Source: a virus (lineage: Duplodnaviria > Heunggongvirae > Uroviricota > Caudoviricetes). Taken from it: DNA of 4,752 bases. This document shows positions 1 through 4,752 of the stretch, piece after piece. The position numbers and the translations under genes are program-made. Each line of letters starts with the position of its first letter. The first letter of the stretch is position 1. The notes below the pieces were generated by a model, which saw only the letters and a list, made by a program, of their open reading frames with translations, did not search any database and was not told where the DNA came from. The DNA lies in the IMG/VR virus record IMGVR_UViG_2579778921_000002. The stretch is one strand, 5' to 3'.

Positions 1-573
1 TTCTGGCATGTTTGCCGCAGGTCTGATCTTGTATATTGCAGTCAAACCAGACGTACATCTTGACCATATTCTTTTCGGCGACATGCTCGGGGTAACCATC
101 GGCGATATAATCCAGACGGTGATTATTGCCGGGCTGGTTACACTTGTTATTAGCGTAAAATGGCGGGATTTTTTGCTGTTCAGCTTTGATTATCAACAGG
201 CGCAGGCAAGCGGTTTGTAAGCGGTTTGCATACGAGATGTCTGCATTATGGGCTGCTGTGCATGGTCTCTCTGACCATTGTGGCGACGCTGAAAGCGGTA
301 GGTATCATTCTCTCCATTTCTCTGCTCATTGCGCCTGGCGCCATTGCGGTACTCCTGACACAACGCTTTCATATTGCGCTCCTACTGGCGATTGGCATAT
401 CGGTAATAGTGTCAATGACTGGTGTCTGGTTGTCCTTTTTTATCGACAGTGCACCAGCTCCGACGATTGTCGTCTTATTCGCGGTTGTGTTCATCATGAC
501 GTTCACCGTTACCAGCATCAACGCACGCACAAAGGGAAACACCCATACACAGGATTTGTCATCACCCAATTAG
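1..573 (+). pseudogene. sitD: 3' portion of an ABC-3 family metal (Mn/Fe-type) ABC transporter permease gene, SitD/YfeD/MntB-like, continuing upstream of the window. The reading frame is interrupted by an 11-bp insertion at 218-228: the upstream part is in frame 2 (2..220, ending at TAA 218-220) and the downstream part in frame 1 (229..573).
   Basis: The frame-2 translation (…LFGDMLGVTIGDIIQTVIIAGLVTLVISV…FDYQQAQASGL) and frame-1 translation (HTRCLHYGLLCMVSLTIVATLKAVGIILSISLLIAPGAIAVLLTQRF…) are both strongly hydrophobic, multi-helix and typical of ABC-3 permease C-terminal halves. Removing nt 218-228 joins them into one continuous protein. The symbol is a best guess from family resemblance and context, not a confirmed identity. 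Confidence 0.6.
208..228 (+). repeat. Imperfect tandem duplication: aagcggtttg (208-217), T (218), aagcggtttg (219-228). It is the cause of the frameshift and premature stop in the permease gene.
   Basis: Direct reading of the sequence; T218 with A219-A220 forms TAA in the upstream reading frame. Confidence 0.85.
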
Positions 574-710: not shown

Positions 711-771
711 ATGCACTCTCGAAAGTGCATCAGCCAACCGCAGAACGTTATTGCATACAACGTTTCTGCGG
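711..771. other. Two adjacent inverted repeats in the intergenic junction. Hairpin 1 is 711-730 (atgcact / ctcgaa loop / agtgcat, 7-bp stem). Hairpin 2 is 738-771 (ccgcagaacgtt / 9-nt loop / aacgtttctgcgg, about 12-bp stem with a 1-nt bulge). Function is unknown.
   Basis: Complementarity checked by eye. Neither hairpin is followed by a clear T-run on either strand, so they are not canonical intrinsic terminators. Confidence 0.35.
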
Positions 772-924
772 CATAATCCCAATGATTACTCCCTGACAGG
801 GTTCGTAGGCCACTCAATATCAGGTGCAGTTGATGTATCAACACGGTTCAGCAGCATCCGATACTTTTTCCAGGCTTCCAGCAACGGGGTTTCTTCCTCC
901 GTTGCATATACAGCTCACCTTTTT

Positions 925-1218
925 TCACCCACGATTAACCAACAGCCAGACCAGCAGACACGCCACCACCGGCACAGCAAAATCCATCAGGCTTGCCACA
1001 TCCCATGCACGTGTATCAAAACCGCCCCACCACGGCATATTCATTCGCTTGCCATGCCCGAACATTTCGATCCAGCGATATTCTGCCTGGGTGTGTTCAC
1101 GCGCAATGAAGAACGTACAACCGGCTATCGCCCCGTAAGCCCAGTTCCCGGTAAAAAGACCAATCAGTAGCTGCGCAGCCACAGCACAAAGCGCATGAAG
1201 GAAAGGTGTTATATCCAT
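925..1218 (-). CDS. Hypothetical small membrane protein of 97 aa with two hydrophobic segments (N-terminal ALCAVAAQLLIGLF and C-terminal FAVPVVACLLVWLLV). Possibly a prophage cargo (moron) gene.
   Basis: ATG at 1216-1218 is preceded on the minus strand by a strong Shine-Dalgarno, GAAGGAGGAG (plus-strand 1221-1230), at good spacing. The ORF is uninterrupted and the hydrophobic segments are flanked by charged residues. The overlapping plus-strand ORFs have implausible composition. Confidence 0.6.
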   Translation of the reverse strand: MDITPFLHALCAVAAQLLIGLFTGNWAYGAIAGCTFFIAREHTQAEYRWIEMFGHGKRMNMPWWGGFDTRAWDVASLMDFAVPVVACLLVWLLVNRG

Positions 1219-1239
1219 TACTCCTCCTTCATCCTACCC

Positions 1240-1262
1240 AATAAAACGGGGCGCTCGGCCCC
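1240..1262 (-). terminator. Putative Rho-independent terminator for the minus-strand tail-fibre operon. On the minus strand it reads GGGGC-CGAGC-GCCCC followed by GTTTTATT.
   Basis: 5-bp all-GC stem at plus 1248-1252 and 1258-1262 with a 5-nt loop and a U-rich tract, located 7 nt downstream of the orf346 stop (1269-1271). Confidence 0.5.
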
Positions 1263-1268
1263 TTAATA

Positions 1269-2309
1269 TTATTTAGACGCAAGCGCCGCCTCAATTACAG
1301 ATAATCTTTGTCTTAATTCTGCGTTTTCTTCTTCCAGTGCTGTTATTCTGTCGTCTGACTCTCTGGCTACCTGAACAAGCAAGCCAGTAACACCAGAATA
1401 ATCTACTGTGTAATAACGTTCACCTTCTTCACCTTCCGATCCGCTCGCACCGTCCTGATATTTCATTGCGGAACCTACAACTTCTGGGATTGCTTCCAGA
1501 GCTTCCTGTGCAATGACACCAGCATAGGGCATACCGTTTTCTTTAAGCGTGTATGTATAGCCGTTCATTTTACGGATGCGGTCGGTTGCATTATCGATCA
1601 CCTGAATGTTGTCTTTCAGATCCCGGTCGGAATGCTGGTTAAATGCGGTGGCATGACATGCACCATTAACGCTTAACATATAGGTGTTATCGGTATTTTT
1701 CTGCGCATAGAACATATAAGCGCCACCATCAACACCGACTTCATAAACAACAGGACGGCTGGAATTTCCCCATAATAACGTCGACACACCAGAATACGCC
1801 GTACCTTGCGTGTTTAGTGTCATGGTCGACCCGTGATTAGCATATTTGATCTGCAATGAGTCTGTATTATCAAACTTAATAAGCGCGTTACTTCCCCGCA
1901 CACCATACGACATGAGACAGTTCCCCATCTTAAGGTAACCATCACTGCCTGGAAAAATTAAAGTTCCTCCGTAAAGATCACTAAAGTCCCAAAAGATACC
2001 TTTTGTCCCGTTATGTGTGACGATCCTCGTCATTGTATCTTTAGTACCATCAATATTTTTTCTGGTATATATGTCACTATAAGCGTTTTCCGTTTCACCA
2101 GTCTTATTTGACAAATGCAGCTTACCGCTGAATATAGTTCCAGTTGTTGGCAATGTTTTTTGATCATAGATTACATTGCAATAACCATTCCATGTTGTTT
2201 TATTGTCTACATAAGATTTTGTTGCGTAGCTTCCTTGATCGTTTTTTAATTTGCTAACGTCGGATTTTAGCGTTTTGATGTCATCAGGAATTACTGTCGA
2301 TGTAGCCAT
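1269..2309 (-). CDS. Phage tail fibre / receptor-binding-type protein of 346 aa. The N-terminal ~226 aa is a Gly/Thr/Asn/Tyr-rich, probably beta-rich domain. The C-terminal ~120 aa resembles the intramolecular chaperone auto-processing domain (Peptidase S74-like) of phage fibres and tailspikes.
   Basis: The C-terminal segment begins HSDRDLKDNIQVIDNATDRIRKMNGYTYTLKENGMPYAGVIAQEALEAIPEVV and ends in a predicted coiled coil (RITALEEENAELRQRLSVIEAALASK), matching the S-D-x-R-x-K-x-N-I signature of intramolecular chaperone domains. A GAGGAAG Shine-Dalgarno overlaps the stop of the upstream 93-aa ORF. Confidence 0.8.
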   Translation of the reverse strand: MATSTVIPDDIKTLKSDVSKLKNDQGSYATKSYVDNKTTWNGYCNVIYDQKTLPTTGTIFSGKLHLSNKTGETENAYSDIYTRKNIDGTKDTMTRIVTHNGTKGIFWDFSDLYGGTLIFPGSDGYLKMGNCLMSYGVRGSNALIKFDNTDSLQIKYANHGSTMTLNTQGTAYSGVSTLLWGNSSRPVVYEVGVDGGAYMFYAQKNTDNTYMLSVNGACHATAFNQHSDRDLKDNIQVIDNATDRIRKMNGYTYTLKENGMPYAGVIAQEALEAIPEVVGSAMKYQDGASGSEGEEGERYYTVDYSGVTGLLVQVARESDDRITALEEENAELRQRLSVIEAALASK

Positions 2310-2318
2310 TTTTCTTCC

Positions 2319-2600
2319 TCACATCCAGCCACGAAGTTGATGCTCAACAGCAACCACGTATTCATCGAATAATGACGATATTTGCGAATCATTAATGATG
2401 CGCACGTTTACAAAATATCCGTCTTCCTTAACACATACCGGTTCGCCATCTTCAGTCAGTTCTCCGGTTTCTTTGTACACGTTACCTATCACGTCGATAA
2501 GAATATCATCCTGCATCGACTCGTCATCATAATAGCCAATACTCTCCATAAAGGCCGAAAAGTCGGCCCTGTCTTCAAATTTGAGTGTTAAATCTTTCAT
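2319..2600 (-). CDS. Hypothetical small, highly acidic protein of 93 aa (22 Asp+Glu against 7 Lys+Arg by direct count). Translationally coupled to stf; possibly a fibre assembly or adaptor factor, or an acidic anti-defence-type protein.
   Basis: Its ATG (2598-2600) overlaps the stf stop (2600-2602) as TAATG on the minus strand. The ORF is uninterrupted with coding-like composition. No family was recognised from memory. Confidence 0.7.
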   Translation of the reverse strand: MKDLTLKFEDRADFSAFMESIGYYDDESMQDDILIDVIGNVYKETGELTEDGEPVCVKEDGYFVNVRIINDSQISSLFDEYVVAVEHQLRGWM

Positions 2601-4752
2601 TAGATTGACTCCCCCACCTGAGCATCAGTCAATGCCTTGTGCCATATTCTGAAATTCCTGACATGACCAAATAAATGACGTAACCCGGCTGTAGTCTGGC
2701 CTCCAATACGGATAATTGCGGTGTTCTGAATACAGGACCATGTGGTTTTTGTTTCGCTGGATATATGCCCGTTACTTACTGAGCACGTAGACTGCTCTGA
2801 CTTTACACGCATCCCCATAACCATTTTTTCAAGCGATGCGTTTTCGTTTACCCGTCTGTTAGCCAAACCTATATCACAATAAGGAAATCCGTCGTAATCT
2901 GTTCCTCCAATATCGCAATAAGGAAATCCGTCGTAATCTGTTGAACGACCGAAGCCAAGAATAATAGCCGCTCCGGTTTGATGACCGCCGGTATCAAAAA
3001 CACGTGGCGCTGCATTTGGCGTTTTATACCAGTTCTTATGTACCTCACAAAGAACCGTAAAAGGAAGATTATAAAGATTATTCTTAATTGGAACTGTAAC
3101 TATATCGCTTGCGCGGGTCGCCGCCGTCGCTCCTGATATAATAAAAGATGATACACAAGGCCCATCTTCTACTTGTGGGGTGGCCAGATAAATATAGTCA
3201 CCAGATACGGTTGCCCCGCTCTGCTTAGGAGAATACTGTATCTGAGAGCCTATTTTTAACTCCCCATCAATTGCCTGAATTGTTGCCTCTGCAAAAATCC
3301 ATCCGGTAGCTTCGTCCTTTCTGACTCTCGCTGTAATCCTTGAGGCAGCACCGCCTGTCATATTAATTTCAAGCGTTTGTGTATCAATATACGCATCACC
3401 AAGAAAAGTTGTTGCGCTACCGTCATATTTATCAAACCGGATACGCAACCTTACCTGCAGTTCTGTTTTAAAACGACATGAGGTTGTCACGTGTTTATTA
3501 TCGCCTGAGACATCAACTGACTTTGTTGCAGCAATTGATGCCATATTAATGGCTGAGGTTTGCCCAATCAGAGAATCGTTGCAGACAAACTTTCCATAGG
3601 TAAAACCAAAATTATCCGTCCCTGTTTCGGGCACATCCATATTTGACGATCGCCCCCAACTGGCAGGGCTTTCCGAATTGAGCATGTAGTTTGTTCTTTG
3701 CCCCTCAATAAGCAGGCCATCACGTTCAAATCGTGGCTCGTCAATGGCAGCCTCTGTCAGCACACCAGATTTGTTAATATAGGTTGCTTTCGATGCACGT
3801 TTAAACTTAACAATCTTGTCGCCAGGCATCGTTATTTCATCGTCACCAATAACAATTTTTTTATATGACGGCGAAAAGCCCGTAATCATATCCAGCGAAT
3901 CGTTAAATGGTATCCACACATCAGGCAGCGGCTGTAAGACATATTTATACGGCTCCGCAGCCTGGCTTGCGTACTCTCTGGCTGCATCTTCGCTTGCTTT
4001 AGCTGCCGTCTGGCTTGCTGCCGATGCTTTCGCTGAGTTCGCAGCCGCTGTTTCGCTCACCTTTGCGTTGGTTTCACTGGTTTTTGCTGCTTTTTGACTG
4101 TTAGCTGATGCAGTGGCAGAAGCAGCCGCCGCGCTTGCAGAACTGGCTGCGGCACTCTCGCTTTGAGCCGCTGCATCCTGACTGCTTTTCGCCGCAGTTT
4201 CACTGGCTTTGGCATTCGTTTCGCTGGTCTTCGCTGCCGTCTGGCTGGACTTTGCGTTAGTTTCACTCGTCTTCGCAGCTTTCTGGCTGTTAGCCGCAGC
4301 AGTTGCTGATCCAGCTGCTGAAGTCGCAGAACCGGCTGCCGCGCTCTCGCTTTGGGCTGCTGCAACCTGGCTGTTTTTTGCCGCAGTTTCACTGGCTTTA
4401 GCATTCGTTTCGCTGGTTTTCGCTGCCGTCTGGCTGGACTTTGCGTTGGTTTCGCTCGTCTTTGCGGCTGTCTCACTGTTTTTCGCGTTGGTTTCTGATT
4501 TTTTGGCTGCTGTCGCGGAGTTTGCCGATGCAGTCTGTGAGGTCGCTGCCGCCTGTGCGCTGTTAGCTGCATTCGTTTCTGAGGTTTTCGCCGCGTTCTT
4601 CGATGATGCCGCTGCAGTTTCGGATTTCTTTGCCGCCGCTGCGCTCTGAGAGGCGGCTTCAGCGTTGCGTGCCGCTTCTTCCACCATTTCCTCAAAACGA
4701 CGCAATGCCTCCGGCATGACATCATCTTCCGTCATGGCACCGAGAAAATCAT
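2600..4752 (-). CDS. stf: Lambda Stf-type side tail fibre protein, 5'-partial (the N-terminus lies beyond the window end). It has a conserved Stf segment, an Ala/Ser/Thr-rich heptad-repeat shaft, and a divergent C-terminal region of about 450 aa ending in a concanavalin A-like (LamG-type) lectin-like domain.
   Basis: The frame stays open to the window edge (…DFLGA-MTEDDVMPEALRRFEEMVEEAARNA), which matches the lambda Stf segment …DFLCAMTEDD…LRR…MVEE…ARNA as recalled from memory. It is followed by about 235 aa of KTSETNA-type repeats. The C-terminus, LRHLFGHVRNFRIWHKALTDAQV, resembles the terminal strand motif of LamG/ConA-like domains. Confidence 0.9.
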   Translation of the reverse strand, partial: DFLGAMTEDDVMPEALRRFEEMVEEAARNAEAASQSAAAAKKSETAAASSKNAAKTSETNAANSAQAAATSQTASANSATAAKKSETNAKNSETAAKTSETNAKSSQTAAKTSETNAKASETAAKNSQVAAAQSESAAAGSATSAAGSATAAANSQKAAKTSETNAKSSQTAAKTSETNAKASETAAKSSQDAAAQSESAAASSASAAAASATASANSQKAAKTSETNAKVSETAAANSAKASAASQTAAKASEDAAREYASQAAEPYKYVLQPLPDVWIPFNDSLDMITGFSPSYKKIVIGDDEITMPGDKIVKFKRASKATYINKSGVLTEAAIDEPRFERDGLLIEGQRTNYMLNSESPASWGRSSNMDVPETGTDNFGFTYGKFVCNDSLIGQTSAINMASIAATKSVDVSGDNKHVTTSCRFKTELQVRLRIRFDKYDGSATTFLGDAYIDTQTLEINMTGGAASRITARVRKDEATGWIFAEATIQAIDGELKIGSQIQYSPKQSGATVSGDYIYLATPQVEDGPCVSSFIISGATAATRASDIVTVPIKNNLYNLPFTVLCEVHKNWYKTPNAAPRVFDTGGHQTGAAIILGFGRSTDYDGFPYCDIGGTDYDGFPYCDIGLANRRVNENASLEKMVMGMRVKSEQSTCSVSNGHISSETKTTWSCIQNTAIIRIGGQTTAGLRHLFGHVRNFRIWHKALTDAQVGESI
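2867..2948 (-). repeat. In-frame tandem duplication of about 39 bp inside the stf C-terminal domain, encoding (S/G)TDYDGFPYCDIG twice.
   Basis: Plus-strand 2871-2909 and 2910-2948 share 33 consecutive positions with one mismatch (a/g), which is synonymous (TGT/TGC Cys) on the coding strand. Confidence 0.9.
3956..4663 (-). repeat. Ala/Ser/Thr-rich repeat region of stf with 21-bp (7-aa) periodicity. It contains a higher-order 189-bp (63-aa) tandem duplication (two full units at about 4097..4474, plus a partial third toward 4040).
   Basis: The anchor gccgcagtttcactggcttt occurs at 4191 and 4380 (period 189 bp) with about 85-90% identity over the surrounding unit. The protein shows KAAKTSETNAKSSQTAAKTSETNAKASETAAK(N/S)SQ… twice. 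Confidence 0.85.

What the first reader, a model, noticed from the sequence alone, without database searches (positions are those of the whole stretch)
208..228. 11-bp insertion (imperfect tandem duplication) inactivates the SitD-like permease and creates an immediate in-frame TAA
aagcggtttg occurs at 208-217 and again at 219-228, separated by a single T (218). That T plus the first AA of the second copy form TAA in the upstream frame. Deleting 218-228 fuses …FDYQQAQASGL directly to HTRCLHYGLLCMVSLTIVATLKAVGIIL…, giving one continuous ABC-3-like permease C-terminus. The gene is therefore either a recent pseudogene, an assembly error, or a deliberate disruption; the way a stop codon and a frameshift are created together is striking.
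Basis: seen in the sequence. Interest (0 to 1): 0.5.

Follow-up and report, generated by a model that had tools for sequence, protein, structure and literature searches.

The report
Private 11-base frameshift insertion in sitD
An 11-base insertion cuts short the E. coli manganese/iron transporter gene sitD, but it is one of three odd insertions in this short stretch that each copy a duplicate gene elsewhere in the genome, so it is more likely a sequence-assembly error than a real mutation.

Summary
AAGCGGTTTG occurs at 208-217 and 219-228, separated by T218. TAA 218-220 ends the upstream frame, and the two frames are consecutive parts of one ABC-3 permease.

The gene is chromosomal E. coli sitD. 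With 11 bases removed, the window is 100% identical to intact sitD in several complete genomes.

- The native codon is GTA (Val), not GCA (Ala).
- The TAA is made of native bases brought into frame.
- The inserted block is 206-216 (GCAAGCGGTTT), because C207 is the only non-native base.

C207 is the base carried by the plasmid-borne sitD paralogue.

The window differs from its closest relatives by no substitutions and exactly three insertions: 206-216, 1220-1227 and 2864-2902. Each places a paralogue's version of a segment directly before the native version. The junction of each is absent from 5,426 complete E. coli genomes and from the GTDB-representative and IMG/VR sets. JGI metagenomes, plasmids and phages were each scanned for one or two of the junctions and also lack them.

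This pattern does not fit ordinary mutation. I judge it most likely (about 0.55) an artefact of contig joining or polishing at repeat branch points. A real paralogue-templated insertion is the main rival. Either way the finding is a null sitD allele or nothing at all, so interest is low.

The parts
1..217 (+). sitD, upstream part: codons for residues about 100-171, reading frame 2, ending ...FDYQQAQASGL
   Evidence: Pfam ABC-3 profile positions 91-163, E = 1.7e-15. Positions 1-205 are 100% identical to chromosomal sitD of strains 13TMH22, DETEC-P829 and FDAARGOS_497.
206..216 (+). The 11 extra bases, GCAAGCGGTTT (equivalently 207-217). They contain C207, the only base in 1-573 that is not the native chromosomal base.
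   Evidence: MAFFT alignments to intact sitD. The plasmid allele pSA186_2 reads GGCAAGCGGTTTG. 1,004 records match the plasmid 80-mer exactly, against 1,007 plasmid places.
208..228 (+).
218..220 (+). Premature TAA, made of native bases (the TA of Val codon GTA plus the A of AGC) brought into frame by the +11 shift
229..573 (+). sitD, downstream part: residues 172-285 plus the TAG stop at 571-573, reading frame 1
   Evidence: Pfam ABC-3 profile positions 165-257, E = 5.4e-20. 100% identical to intact chromosomal sitD.
1220..1227 (+). Second private insertion, ACTCCTCC (GGAGGAGT on the minus strand, directly upstream of the ATG of the 97-aa ORF 925-1218). The paralogous prophage loci carry the same 8 bases at this spot.
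   Evidence: No complete E. coli genome has this junction; the best hit is 89.7% identical, which is the 8-nt gap. Also absent from IMG/VR and the GTDB representatives.
2864..2902 (+). Third private insertion, 39 nt, in frame (13 aa, TDYDGFPYCDIGL) in the prophage tail-fibre gene. It is the allele of a paralogous tail-fibre gene, placed directly before the native allele at 2903-2941. The two copies differ at 6 of 39 bases.
   Evidence: Window 2843-2902 is 100% identical to a second prophage in 13TMH22 itself (at 928 kb) and in at least 144 genomes. The tandem junction is absent from the E. coli genomes, phages, IMG/VR and JGI metagenomes.
925..4752 (-). Lambdoid prophage remnant next to sitD: 97-aa ORF (925-1218), 346-aa tail-fibre-domain protein (1269-2309), 93-aa ORF (2319-2600), and the tail-fibre N-terminal-domain protein (2600 to the window end, N-terminus outside the window)
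   Evidence: ORF list. RefSeq annotation of the identical region in 13TMH22 and DETEC-P829.

Best explanation
The window covers the 3' two-thirds of chromosomal E. coli sitD, the last gene of the sitABCD Mn/Fe ABC importer operon, plus the adjacent prophage remnant. Eleven extra bases at 206-216 shift the frame by +2, so the native bases T-A-A at 218-220 become a stop codon after residue 171 of 285. As written, the sequence encodes a SitD that lacks its C-terminal 114 residues, which is a null allele. On origin, I think the insertion most likely never existed in the cell. It looks like one of three reconstruction artefacts in this window, each at a point where the locus and a second copy elsewhere in the genome stop being identical. 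The second copies are the plasmid-borne sitD and a second lambdoid prophage. In each case the sequence runs from a shared stretch into the paralogue's version of the next few bases, and the native version then follows from its own start. That is the result expected when a contig end, a gap-filling extension or a local re-assembly follows reads of the wrong copy and is then butted onto the native continuation without the overlap being recognised. Shown: the anatomy, that the inserted bases match the paralogues, that the insertions are private, and that there are no substitutions. Inferred: that the cause is computational, and which kind of software step produced it.
For: (1) With the three insertions removed, the window is identical at all 4,694 positions to 13TMH22 and DETEC-P829. 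Four further complete genomes give the same bit score. (2) The junction of each insertion is absent from all 5,426 complete E. coli genomes, from the GTDB species representatives and from IMG/VR. JGI metagenome contigs lack the sitD and tail-fibre junctions, PLSDB plasmids lack the sitD junction and phage genomes lack the tail-fibre junction. The predicted truncated SitD and the duplicated tail fibre are not among about 15 billion proteins. (3) The inserted bases are the paralogue's. All 6 differences of the 39-mer match the second prophage of the same genome. All 8 bases of ACTCCTCC match the paralogous loci. C207 is the plasmid-type base, while the window is chromosomal-type at every other distinguishing site: 64, 92, 133, 240, 270 and onward. 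(4) The two tandem insertions have the same layout and orientation: shared stretch, paralogue version, shared bases, native version. All three insertions sit at the right-hand end of a 68-96-nt stretch that is perfectly shared by native locus and paralogue. (5) Three indels with zero substitutions in 4.7 kb is far from ordinary mutation, where substitutions outnumber indels (general knowledge of E. coli mutation spectra). (6) sitD is often fragmented in draft assemblies, with contig ends and N gaps.
Against: No reads are available, so the artefact is not demonstrated. A plain de Bruijn graph assembler cannot invent junction k-mers that no read contains, so a specific later step has to be assumed (gap closing, contig merging, local re-assembly during polishing, or long-read consensus), and I could not identify it. 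For the sitD insertion alone, the paralogue signal is a single base, with a 1-in-3 chance of matching by accident. Short tandem duplications that frameshift genes are common real mutations. Not every long shared stretch in the window has such an insertion; for example there is none at 1006 or 2496. I do not know that the source strain carries a sit plasmid or the second prophage.
Confidence: 0.55

Rival explanations
1. A genuine mutation made by ectopic templating. A broken or stalled 3' end in chromosomal sitD copied a few bases from the plasmid-borne sitD and was rejoined to the native sequence without alignment. The same process acted at two prophage sites, using the second prophage as template. 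The result is a real, recent null allele of sitD.
For: The inserted bases match paralogues at all three sites. All three can be written as synthesis running left to right from a shared stretch into the paralogue, followed by a join with 0-2 nt of microhomology. Base-level quality of the window is otherwise perfect, which argues against a generally poor assembly.
Against: It needs three independent rare events from at least two donors within 4.7 kb in a lineage that has no substitution there. E. coli has no classical end-joining pathway, and ordinary homologous repair from a paralogue gives substitution tracts, not tandem copies (established knowledge). No such allele turns up anywhere else.
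Confidence: 0.2
2. An ordinary real pseudogene. Replication slippage duplicated the 11 nt GTAAGCGGTTT exactly, and a later T-to-C transition hit the first copy. The other two insertions are unrelated natural prophage variation.
For: Small tandem duplications are a common way for bacterial genes to be frameshifted. The two 11-mers differ at only one base. The accessory sit system is partly redundant with MntH (PMC13463694), so its loss is tolerable.
Against: The single substitution in 4,752 bases would have to fall within the 22-nt repeat (about 0.5%) and also produce the plasmid-type base. This model leaves the two other private insertions, both matching paralogues, unexplained. Only 1 nt of flanking microhomology (a G on each side) is available to prime slippage.
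Confidence: 0.1
3. A deliberate or in-silico edit: an engineered knock-out of sitD, or a sequence altered after assembly.
For: A frameshift with an immediate stop is what a designed knock-out aims for. All three changes are insertions and all are private.
Against: There is no selection-marker scar, recombinase site or all-frame stop cassette. The inserted bases are copies of local and paralogous sequence. Nobody would have a reason to add 13 residues to a cryptic tail fibre or 8 nt upstream of a prophage ORF.
Confidence: 0.06
4. The gene is still functional, either through programmed ribosomal frameshifting across the insertion or as two separately translated halves.
For: In frame 1 the reading frame is open from 190 onward, so a -1 shift between 190 and 217 would give a full-length protein. 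A TTG at 226 and an ATG at 262 are in the downstream frame.
Against: There is no X-XXY-YYZ slippery heptamer in the 0 frame before the TAA (C-GGT-TTG), and no Shine-Dalgarno-like sequence before 226 or 262 (read). No other sitD has this arrangement, so it is not a conserved recoding site.
Confidence: 0.01

Closest known systems
Chromosomal E. coli sitD (RefSeq WP_000968130.1, 'iron/manganese ABC transporter permease subunit SitD'), last gene of sitABCD, next to a lambdoid prophage remnant
   Same: With 206-216 removed, the window is 100% identical over 689 nt of sitD and over the whole 4.7 kb. The neighbouring genes are the same.
   Different: The window has 11 extra bases, a stop after residue 171, and Ala instead of Val at residue 168 in the truncated product.
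Plasmid-borne sitD (ColV/IncF-type plasmids, e.g. pSA186_2, WP_000968139.1)
   Same: It carries GCA (Ala) at the codon in question, so the inserted 11-mer GCAAGCGGTTT is an exact copy of the plasmid sequence.
   Different: The window carries the chromosomal base at all other distinguishing sites: 64, 92, 133, 240, 270 and onward. No plasmid has the duplication.
Other disrupted sitD alleles in public assemblies, e.g. the IS3-family insertion in OY856303.1 (L010)
   Same: sitD is interrupted within about 15 nt of this site and leaves the same 103-aa C-terminal ORF.
   Different: That is a 1.3-kb insertion sequence with a 3-nt target duplication (AGA), a well-understood real event. This one is an 11-nt copy of adjacent or paralogous sequence.
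Templated insertions at repaired breaks or switched replication forks (microhomology-mediated break-induced replication; polymerase-theta end joining in eukaryotes), recalled from general knowledge
   Same: A short stretch copied from an ectopic homologous template is inserted next to the native sequence, with little or no microhomology at the join.
   Different: This is not an established process between plasmid and chromosome, or between prophages, in E. coli. Membership cannot be tested from sequence alone.
Duplication artefacts at contig joins, gap closures or local re-assembly in repeats, recalled from general knowledge of assembly pipelines
   Same: The insertions lie exactly where two repeat copies diverge, carry the other copy's bases, are insertions only, and sit in otherwise error-free sequence.
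   Different: The specific software step is unknown, and there are no read data to show that the junctions lack support.

Membership tests
ABC-3 metal ABC-transporter permease (Pfam PF00950) / SitD | Match to PF00950 above the gathering score | tested here: met
   Scores are 57.7 bits (upstream frame), 72.4 bits (downstream frame) and 141.6 bits (joined), against a cut-off of 20.1.
ABC-3 metal ABC-transporter permease (Pfam PF00950) / SitD | The two frames are consecutive parts of one protein | tested here: met
   Profile positions 91-163 and 165-257 follow one another. The intact SitD of FDAARGOS_497 reads straight through.
ABC-3 metal ABC-transporter permease (Pfam PF00950) / SitD | Orthology to named SitD and a place in a sitABCD operon | tested here: met
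   100% nucleotide identity to RefSeq-annotated sitD once the 11 nt are removed. In those genomes sitA, sitB and sitC lie directly upstream. The window itself starts inside sitD, so its own sitABC cannot be seen.
ABC-3 metal ABC-transporter permease (Pfam PF00950) / SitD | A curated NCBIfam equivalog for SitD reached | tested here: inconclusive
   Only related models match (AztB, SloB-type, ZnuB), and all fall below their cut-offs. No SitD-specific model appears. The closest solved structure is the Mn permease PsaC (7KYO/7KYP), E = 1e-39 over residues 5-266.
ABC-3 metal ABC-transporter permease (Pfam PF00950) / SitD | Complete open reading frame (a functional member) | tested here: not met
   There is a stop at 218-220 after residue 171 of 285.
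Simple slipped-strand tandem duplication | The new copy is an exact copy of the adjacent native template | tested here: not met
   The 11-mers GCAAGCGGTTT and GTAAGCGGTTT differ at one base. The listed exact matches to the C-bearing 80-mer are plasmid-sized records, listed chromosomal copies differ from it by one or two bases, and the one sequenced (Ecol_732) reads GTA.
Transposon target-site duplication or excision footprint | Element ends, or a residual scar between the repeats | tested here: not met
   The copies are directly adjacent with nothing between them. The real IS insertion nearby (L010) has a 3-nt duplication at a different position.
Programmed ribosomal frameshift site | Slippery heptamer in the 0 frame, and conservation of the shifted arrangement among homologues | tested here: not met
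   There is no X-XXY-YYZ motif before the TAA. None of about 2,600 sitD records has the arrangement.
Assembly or polishing artefact at a repeat branch point | Located where two repeat copies diverge, and carrying the other copy's bases | tested here: met
   This holds for all three insertions.
Assembly or polishing artefact at a repeat branch point | Junction not supported by raw reads | not testable with these tools
   No read data or provenance for the window are available.

The most novel reading that the evidence does not exclude
The three insertions are real and record a process not described in E. coli. In it, 3' ends at breaks or stalled forks copy a few to a few dozen bases from a dispersed paralogue (plasmid to chromosome, prophage to prophage) and are rejoined without alignment. 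This leaves the paralogue version and the native version in tandem, and one such event has knocked out sitD.
Probability: 0.15. Interest if true: 0.55.

Novelty: not a real feature. Interest (0 to 1): 0.13.

Why it matters
If the insertion is an artefact, the lesson is practical: the apparent sitD pseudogene should not be counted as loss of a virulence-associated Mn/Fe importer. The signature seen here (paralogue version followed by native version, insertions only, at repeat divergence points) can also be used to flag similar false frameshifts in multi-copy genes.

If it is real, it is a private null allele of an accessory transporter that is partly redundant with MntH. Loss of Sit alone gives modest defects, and loss of Sit plus MntH gives strong oxidative-stress and infection defects (PMC13463694). 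Only the unlikely reading, a true paralogue-templated insertion process, would be of wider interest.

Tried and rejected
That 80-mer matches none of 2,610 sitD records exactly, whereas deleting 206-216 gives 100% identity.

(2) I tried to find the source genome or a second carrier of the insertion.
- Junction scans of the E. coli complete genomes, plasmids, phages, GTDB representatives, IMG/VR and JGI metagenomes found nothing.
- Exact-protein look-ups of the predicted truncated SitD and the duplicated tail fibre found nothing.

(3) Contigs that encode the same 115-aa or 103-aa C-terminal fragment looked promising. They turned out to be contig ends, runs of N, an IS3-family insertion, or chimeric Phocaeicola/E. 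coli contigs. Their clustering near this site comes from searching by identical product, so it is not evidence of a hotspot.

(4) A transposon footprint, programmed frameshifting and a split functional gene were considered and rejected (see the membership tests and rivals).

(5) I looked for a rule that predicts which shared stretches get an insertion, for example a k-mer length threshold. Stretches of 74, 97 and 69 nt precede the three sites, but stretches of 119 nt (before 1006) and 75 nt (before 2496) have none. This is inconclusive, partly because the source strain's own paralogues are unknown.

(6) A quasi-palindrome template for the 11-mer: I saw no nearby reverse-complement copy when reading the sequence.

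Full report
**What is in the sequence.** The window reads ...CAG GCG CAG GCA AGC GGT TTG TAA GCG GTT TGC ATA CG... TAA 218-220 ends the ORF that enters from the left edge. A comparable repeat (at least 10 nt exact, copies 0-3 nt apart) appears in 42 of 2,000 dinucleotide-preserving shuffles. The repeat is therefore unusual but not decisive on its own.

**What gene it is.**
- Pfam ABC-3 (PF00950) matches the upstream frame at profile positions 91-163 and the downstream frame at 165-257. The joined protein matches 91-257 at E = 4e-41.
- A megablast of 1-700 finds sitD in 2,348 of 5,426 complete E. coli genomes. The best hits align 700 window bases to 689 record bases at 98.4% identity, and the sole difference is an 11-base gap.
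- In those genomes sitD is the last gene of sitABCD and is followed by a lambdoid prophage remnant on the other strand.
- The closest solved structure is the Mn permease PsaC (7KYO/7KYP), E = 1e-39.
- No SitD-specific NCBIfam model reached its cut-off, so the name rests on identity to RefSeq-annotated sitD.
- SitABCD imports Mn and Fe and is partly redundant with MntH (PMC13463694). It occurs on chromosomes and on ColV-type plasmids (PMC10282060; searches show about 1,650 chromosomal and 1,007 plasmid places).

**Correcting the parse.** Intact chromosomal sitD reads CAG-GTA-AGC-GGT-TTG-CAT, which is Q-V-S-G-L-H.
- T218-A219-A220 are native bases that the +11 shift brings into frame.
- The base that does not belong is C207.
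- The extra block is therefore 206-216 (GCAAGCGGTTT) or 207-217, not 218-228.
- C207 is the base of the plasmid-borne sitD allele. 1,004 records match the plasmid 80-mer exactly, against 1,007 plasmid places. The listed exact matches are plasmid-sized records and the listed chromosomal copies differ.
- At every other site that separates the two alleles (64, 92, 133, 240, 270 and onward), the window has the chromosomal base.

**The wider context changes the picture.** Aligning the whole window to its closest relatives (13TMH22 and DETEC-P829) shows no substitution and exactly three differences, all insertions in the window: 206-216, 1220-1227 (ACTCCTCC) and 2864-2902 (39 nt). Four more complete genomes give the same score.
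- *The 39-mer.* It is an in-frame 13-residue addition to the prophage tail-fibre gene and differs from the native copy beside it at 6 of 39 bases. All six differences, together with the left flank, are 100% identical to a paralogous tail-fibre gene in a second prophage. That prophage is present in 13TMH22 itself and in at least 144 genomes.
- *The 8-mer.* It is what paralogous prophage loci carry at that same spot.
- *Common layout.* The two tandem insertions share one layout: a stretch shared by both copies, then the paralogue's version, then a few shared bases, then the native version. The 8-mer has no duplicated native counterpart, but like the other two it follows a 68-96-nt stretch shared perfectly with the paralogue.

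**The insertions are private.** The junction of each insertion is absent from:
- the 5,426 complete E. coli genomes;
- the GTDB species representatives;
- IMG/VR.

The remaining collections were scanned for one or two of the junctions and also lack them: JGI metagenome contigs for the sitD and tail-fibre junctions, PLSDB plasmids for the sitD junction and phage genomes for the tail-fibre junction.

The predicted truncated SitD and the duplicated tail fibre are not among about 15 billion proteins. This assumes the source has the reference N-termini. Contigs that encode the same C-terminal SitD fragment are contig ends, N gaps, an IS3-family insertion, or Phocaeicola/E. coli chimeras. None has the 11-nt insertion.

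**Interpretation.** Three private indels, zero substitutions, and inserted bases that reproduce paralogues do not fit independent ordinary mutations. For the sitD site alone, the route of exact slippage duplication followed by a later point mutation has two requirements. The only substitution in 4.7 kb must fall inside the 22-nt repeat (about 0.5%), and it must also yield the plasmid base. Homologous gene conversion from a paralogue would give substitution tracts, not tandem copies.

Two explanations remain.
- *Reconstruction artefact at repeat branch points.* A contig end, gap-filling extension or local re-assembly follows the wrong copy for a few bases and is then butted onto the native continuation.
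- *Real ectopic-templated insertions.* A 3' end copies briefly from the paralogue and is rejoined without alignment.

I favour the artefact (about 0.55) on prior grounds and because it explains three hits in one short repeat-rich stretch of otherwise perfect sequence. The biological version (about 0.2) needs three rare events of a kind not established in E. coli. I cannot name the software step. A plain de Bruijn assembler could not create these junctions, which is the main weakness of the artefact reading.

**Consequence if real.** SitD would end after residue 171 of 285 and lose the C-terminal 114 residues, which is the part aligned to the last third of PsaC. SitC and SitD are the two permease subunits named in the annotation, so the importer would be inactive. 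There would be no polar effect, because sitD is the last gene of the operon. I found no slippery site and no ribosome-binding sequence that would rescue expression.

**Verdict.**
- Observation: confirmed.
- Interpretation: partly supported.
- Most likely status: not a real feature of the organism.
- If real, it is an ordinary private null allele. Interest is low either way.

Noticed in passing
window 1220-1227: A private 8-nt insertion, ACTCCTCC (GGAGGAGT on the minus strand). It places a consensus ribosome-binding sequence directly upstream of the ATG of the 97-aa prophage ORF (925-1218, minus strand). Paralogous prophage loci carry these 8 nt; the closest relatives of this locus do not.
   Followed up: yes
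window 2864-2902 (native copy at 2903-2941): A private in-frame 39-nt insertion in the tail-fibre gene. It gives TDYDGFPYCDIGG-TDYDGFPYCDIGL. The extra copy is the exact allele of a second prophage's tail-fibre gene, which lies at 928 kb in 13TMH22.
   Followed up: yes
L008 1-50 and L009 1-50 (joined to window 227 onward): Two human-gut metagenome contigs (ERZ919813, ERZ27265656) join 50 nt that are 100% identical to Phocaeicola massiliensis DNA directly to E. coli sitD at TG|CATACG. This creates an ATG that yields the same 115-aa product. It is probably a chimeric assembly, but the same join appears in two deposited assemblies.
   Followed up: partly
L010 4655-5975 (E. coli OY856303.1), equivalent to window about 235: An independent, real-looking disruption of sitD by an IS3-family element with a 3-nt target duplication (AGA), 14 nt downstream of the window's repeat. 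In that genome sitA is also split into two ORFs.
   Followed up: partly
window 4061-4480 (minus-strand tail-fibre gene): About 2.2 copies of a 189-nt unit (83% matches) with nested 21- and 42-nt periodicity. It encodes the Ala/Ser/Thr-rich ...KTSETNAK... repeats of the tail-fibre N-terminal region. It is native, being identical in the reference genomes.
   Followed up: no
window 1419-1436: A perfect 9-nt x 2 tandem repeat (TTCACCTTC) inside the 346-aa tail-fibre-domain gene, encoding EGEEGE. It is also present in the reference genomes, so it is a native short tandem repeat, unlike the one at 208-228.
   Followed up: partly
window 735-778: A near-perfect inverted repeat (CCGCAGAACGTT ... AACGTTTCTGCGG) lies between the sitD stop codon and the remnant of a tail-fibre assembly gene (786-905, annotated as a pseudogene in the references). 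It could be a terminator or a recombination remnant.
   Followed up: no
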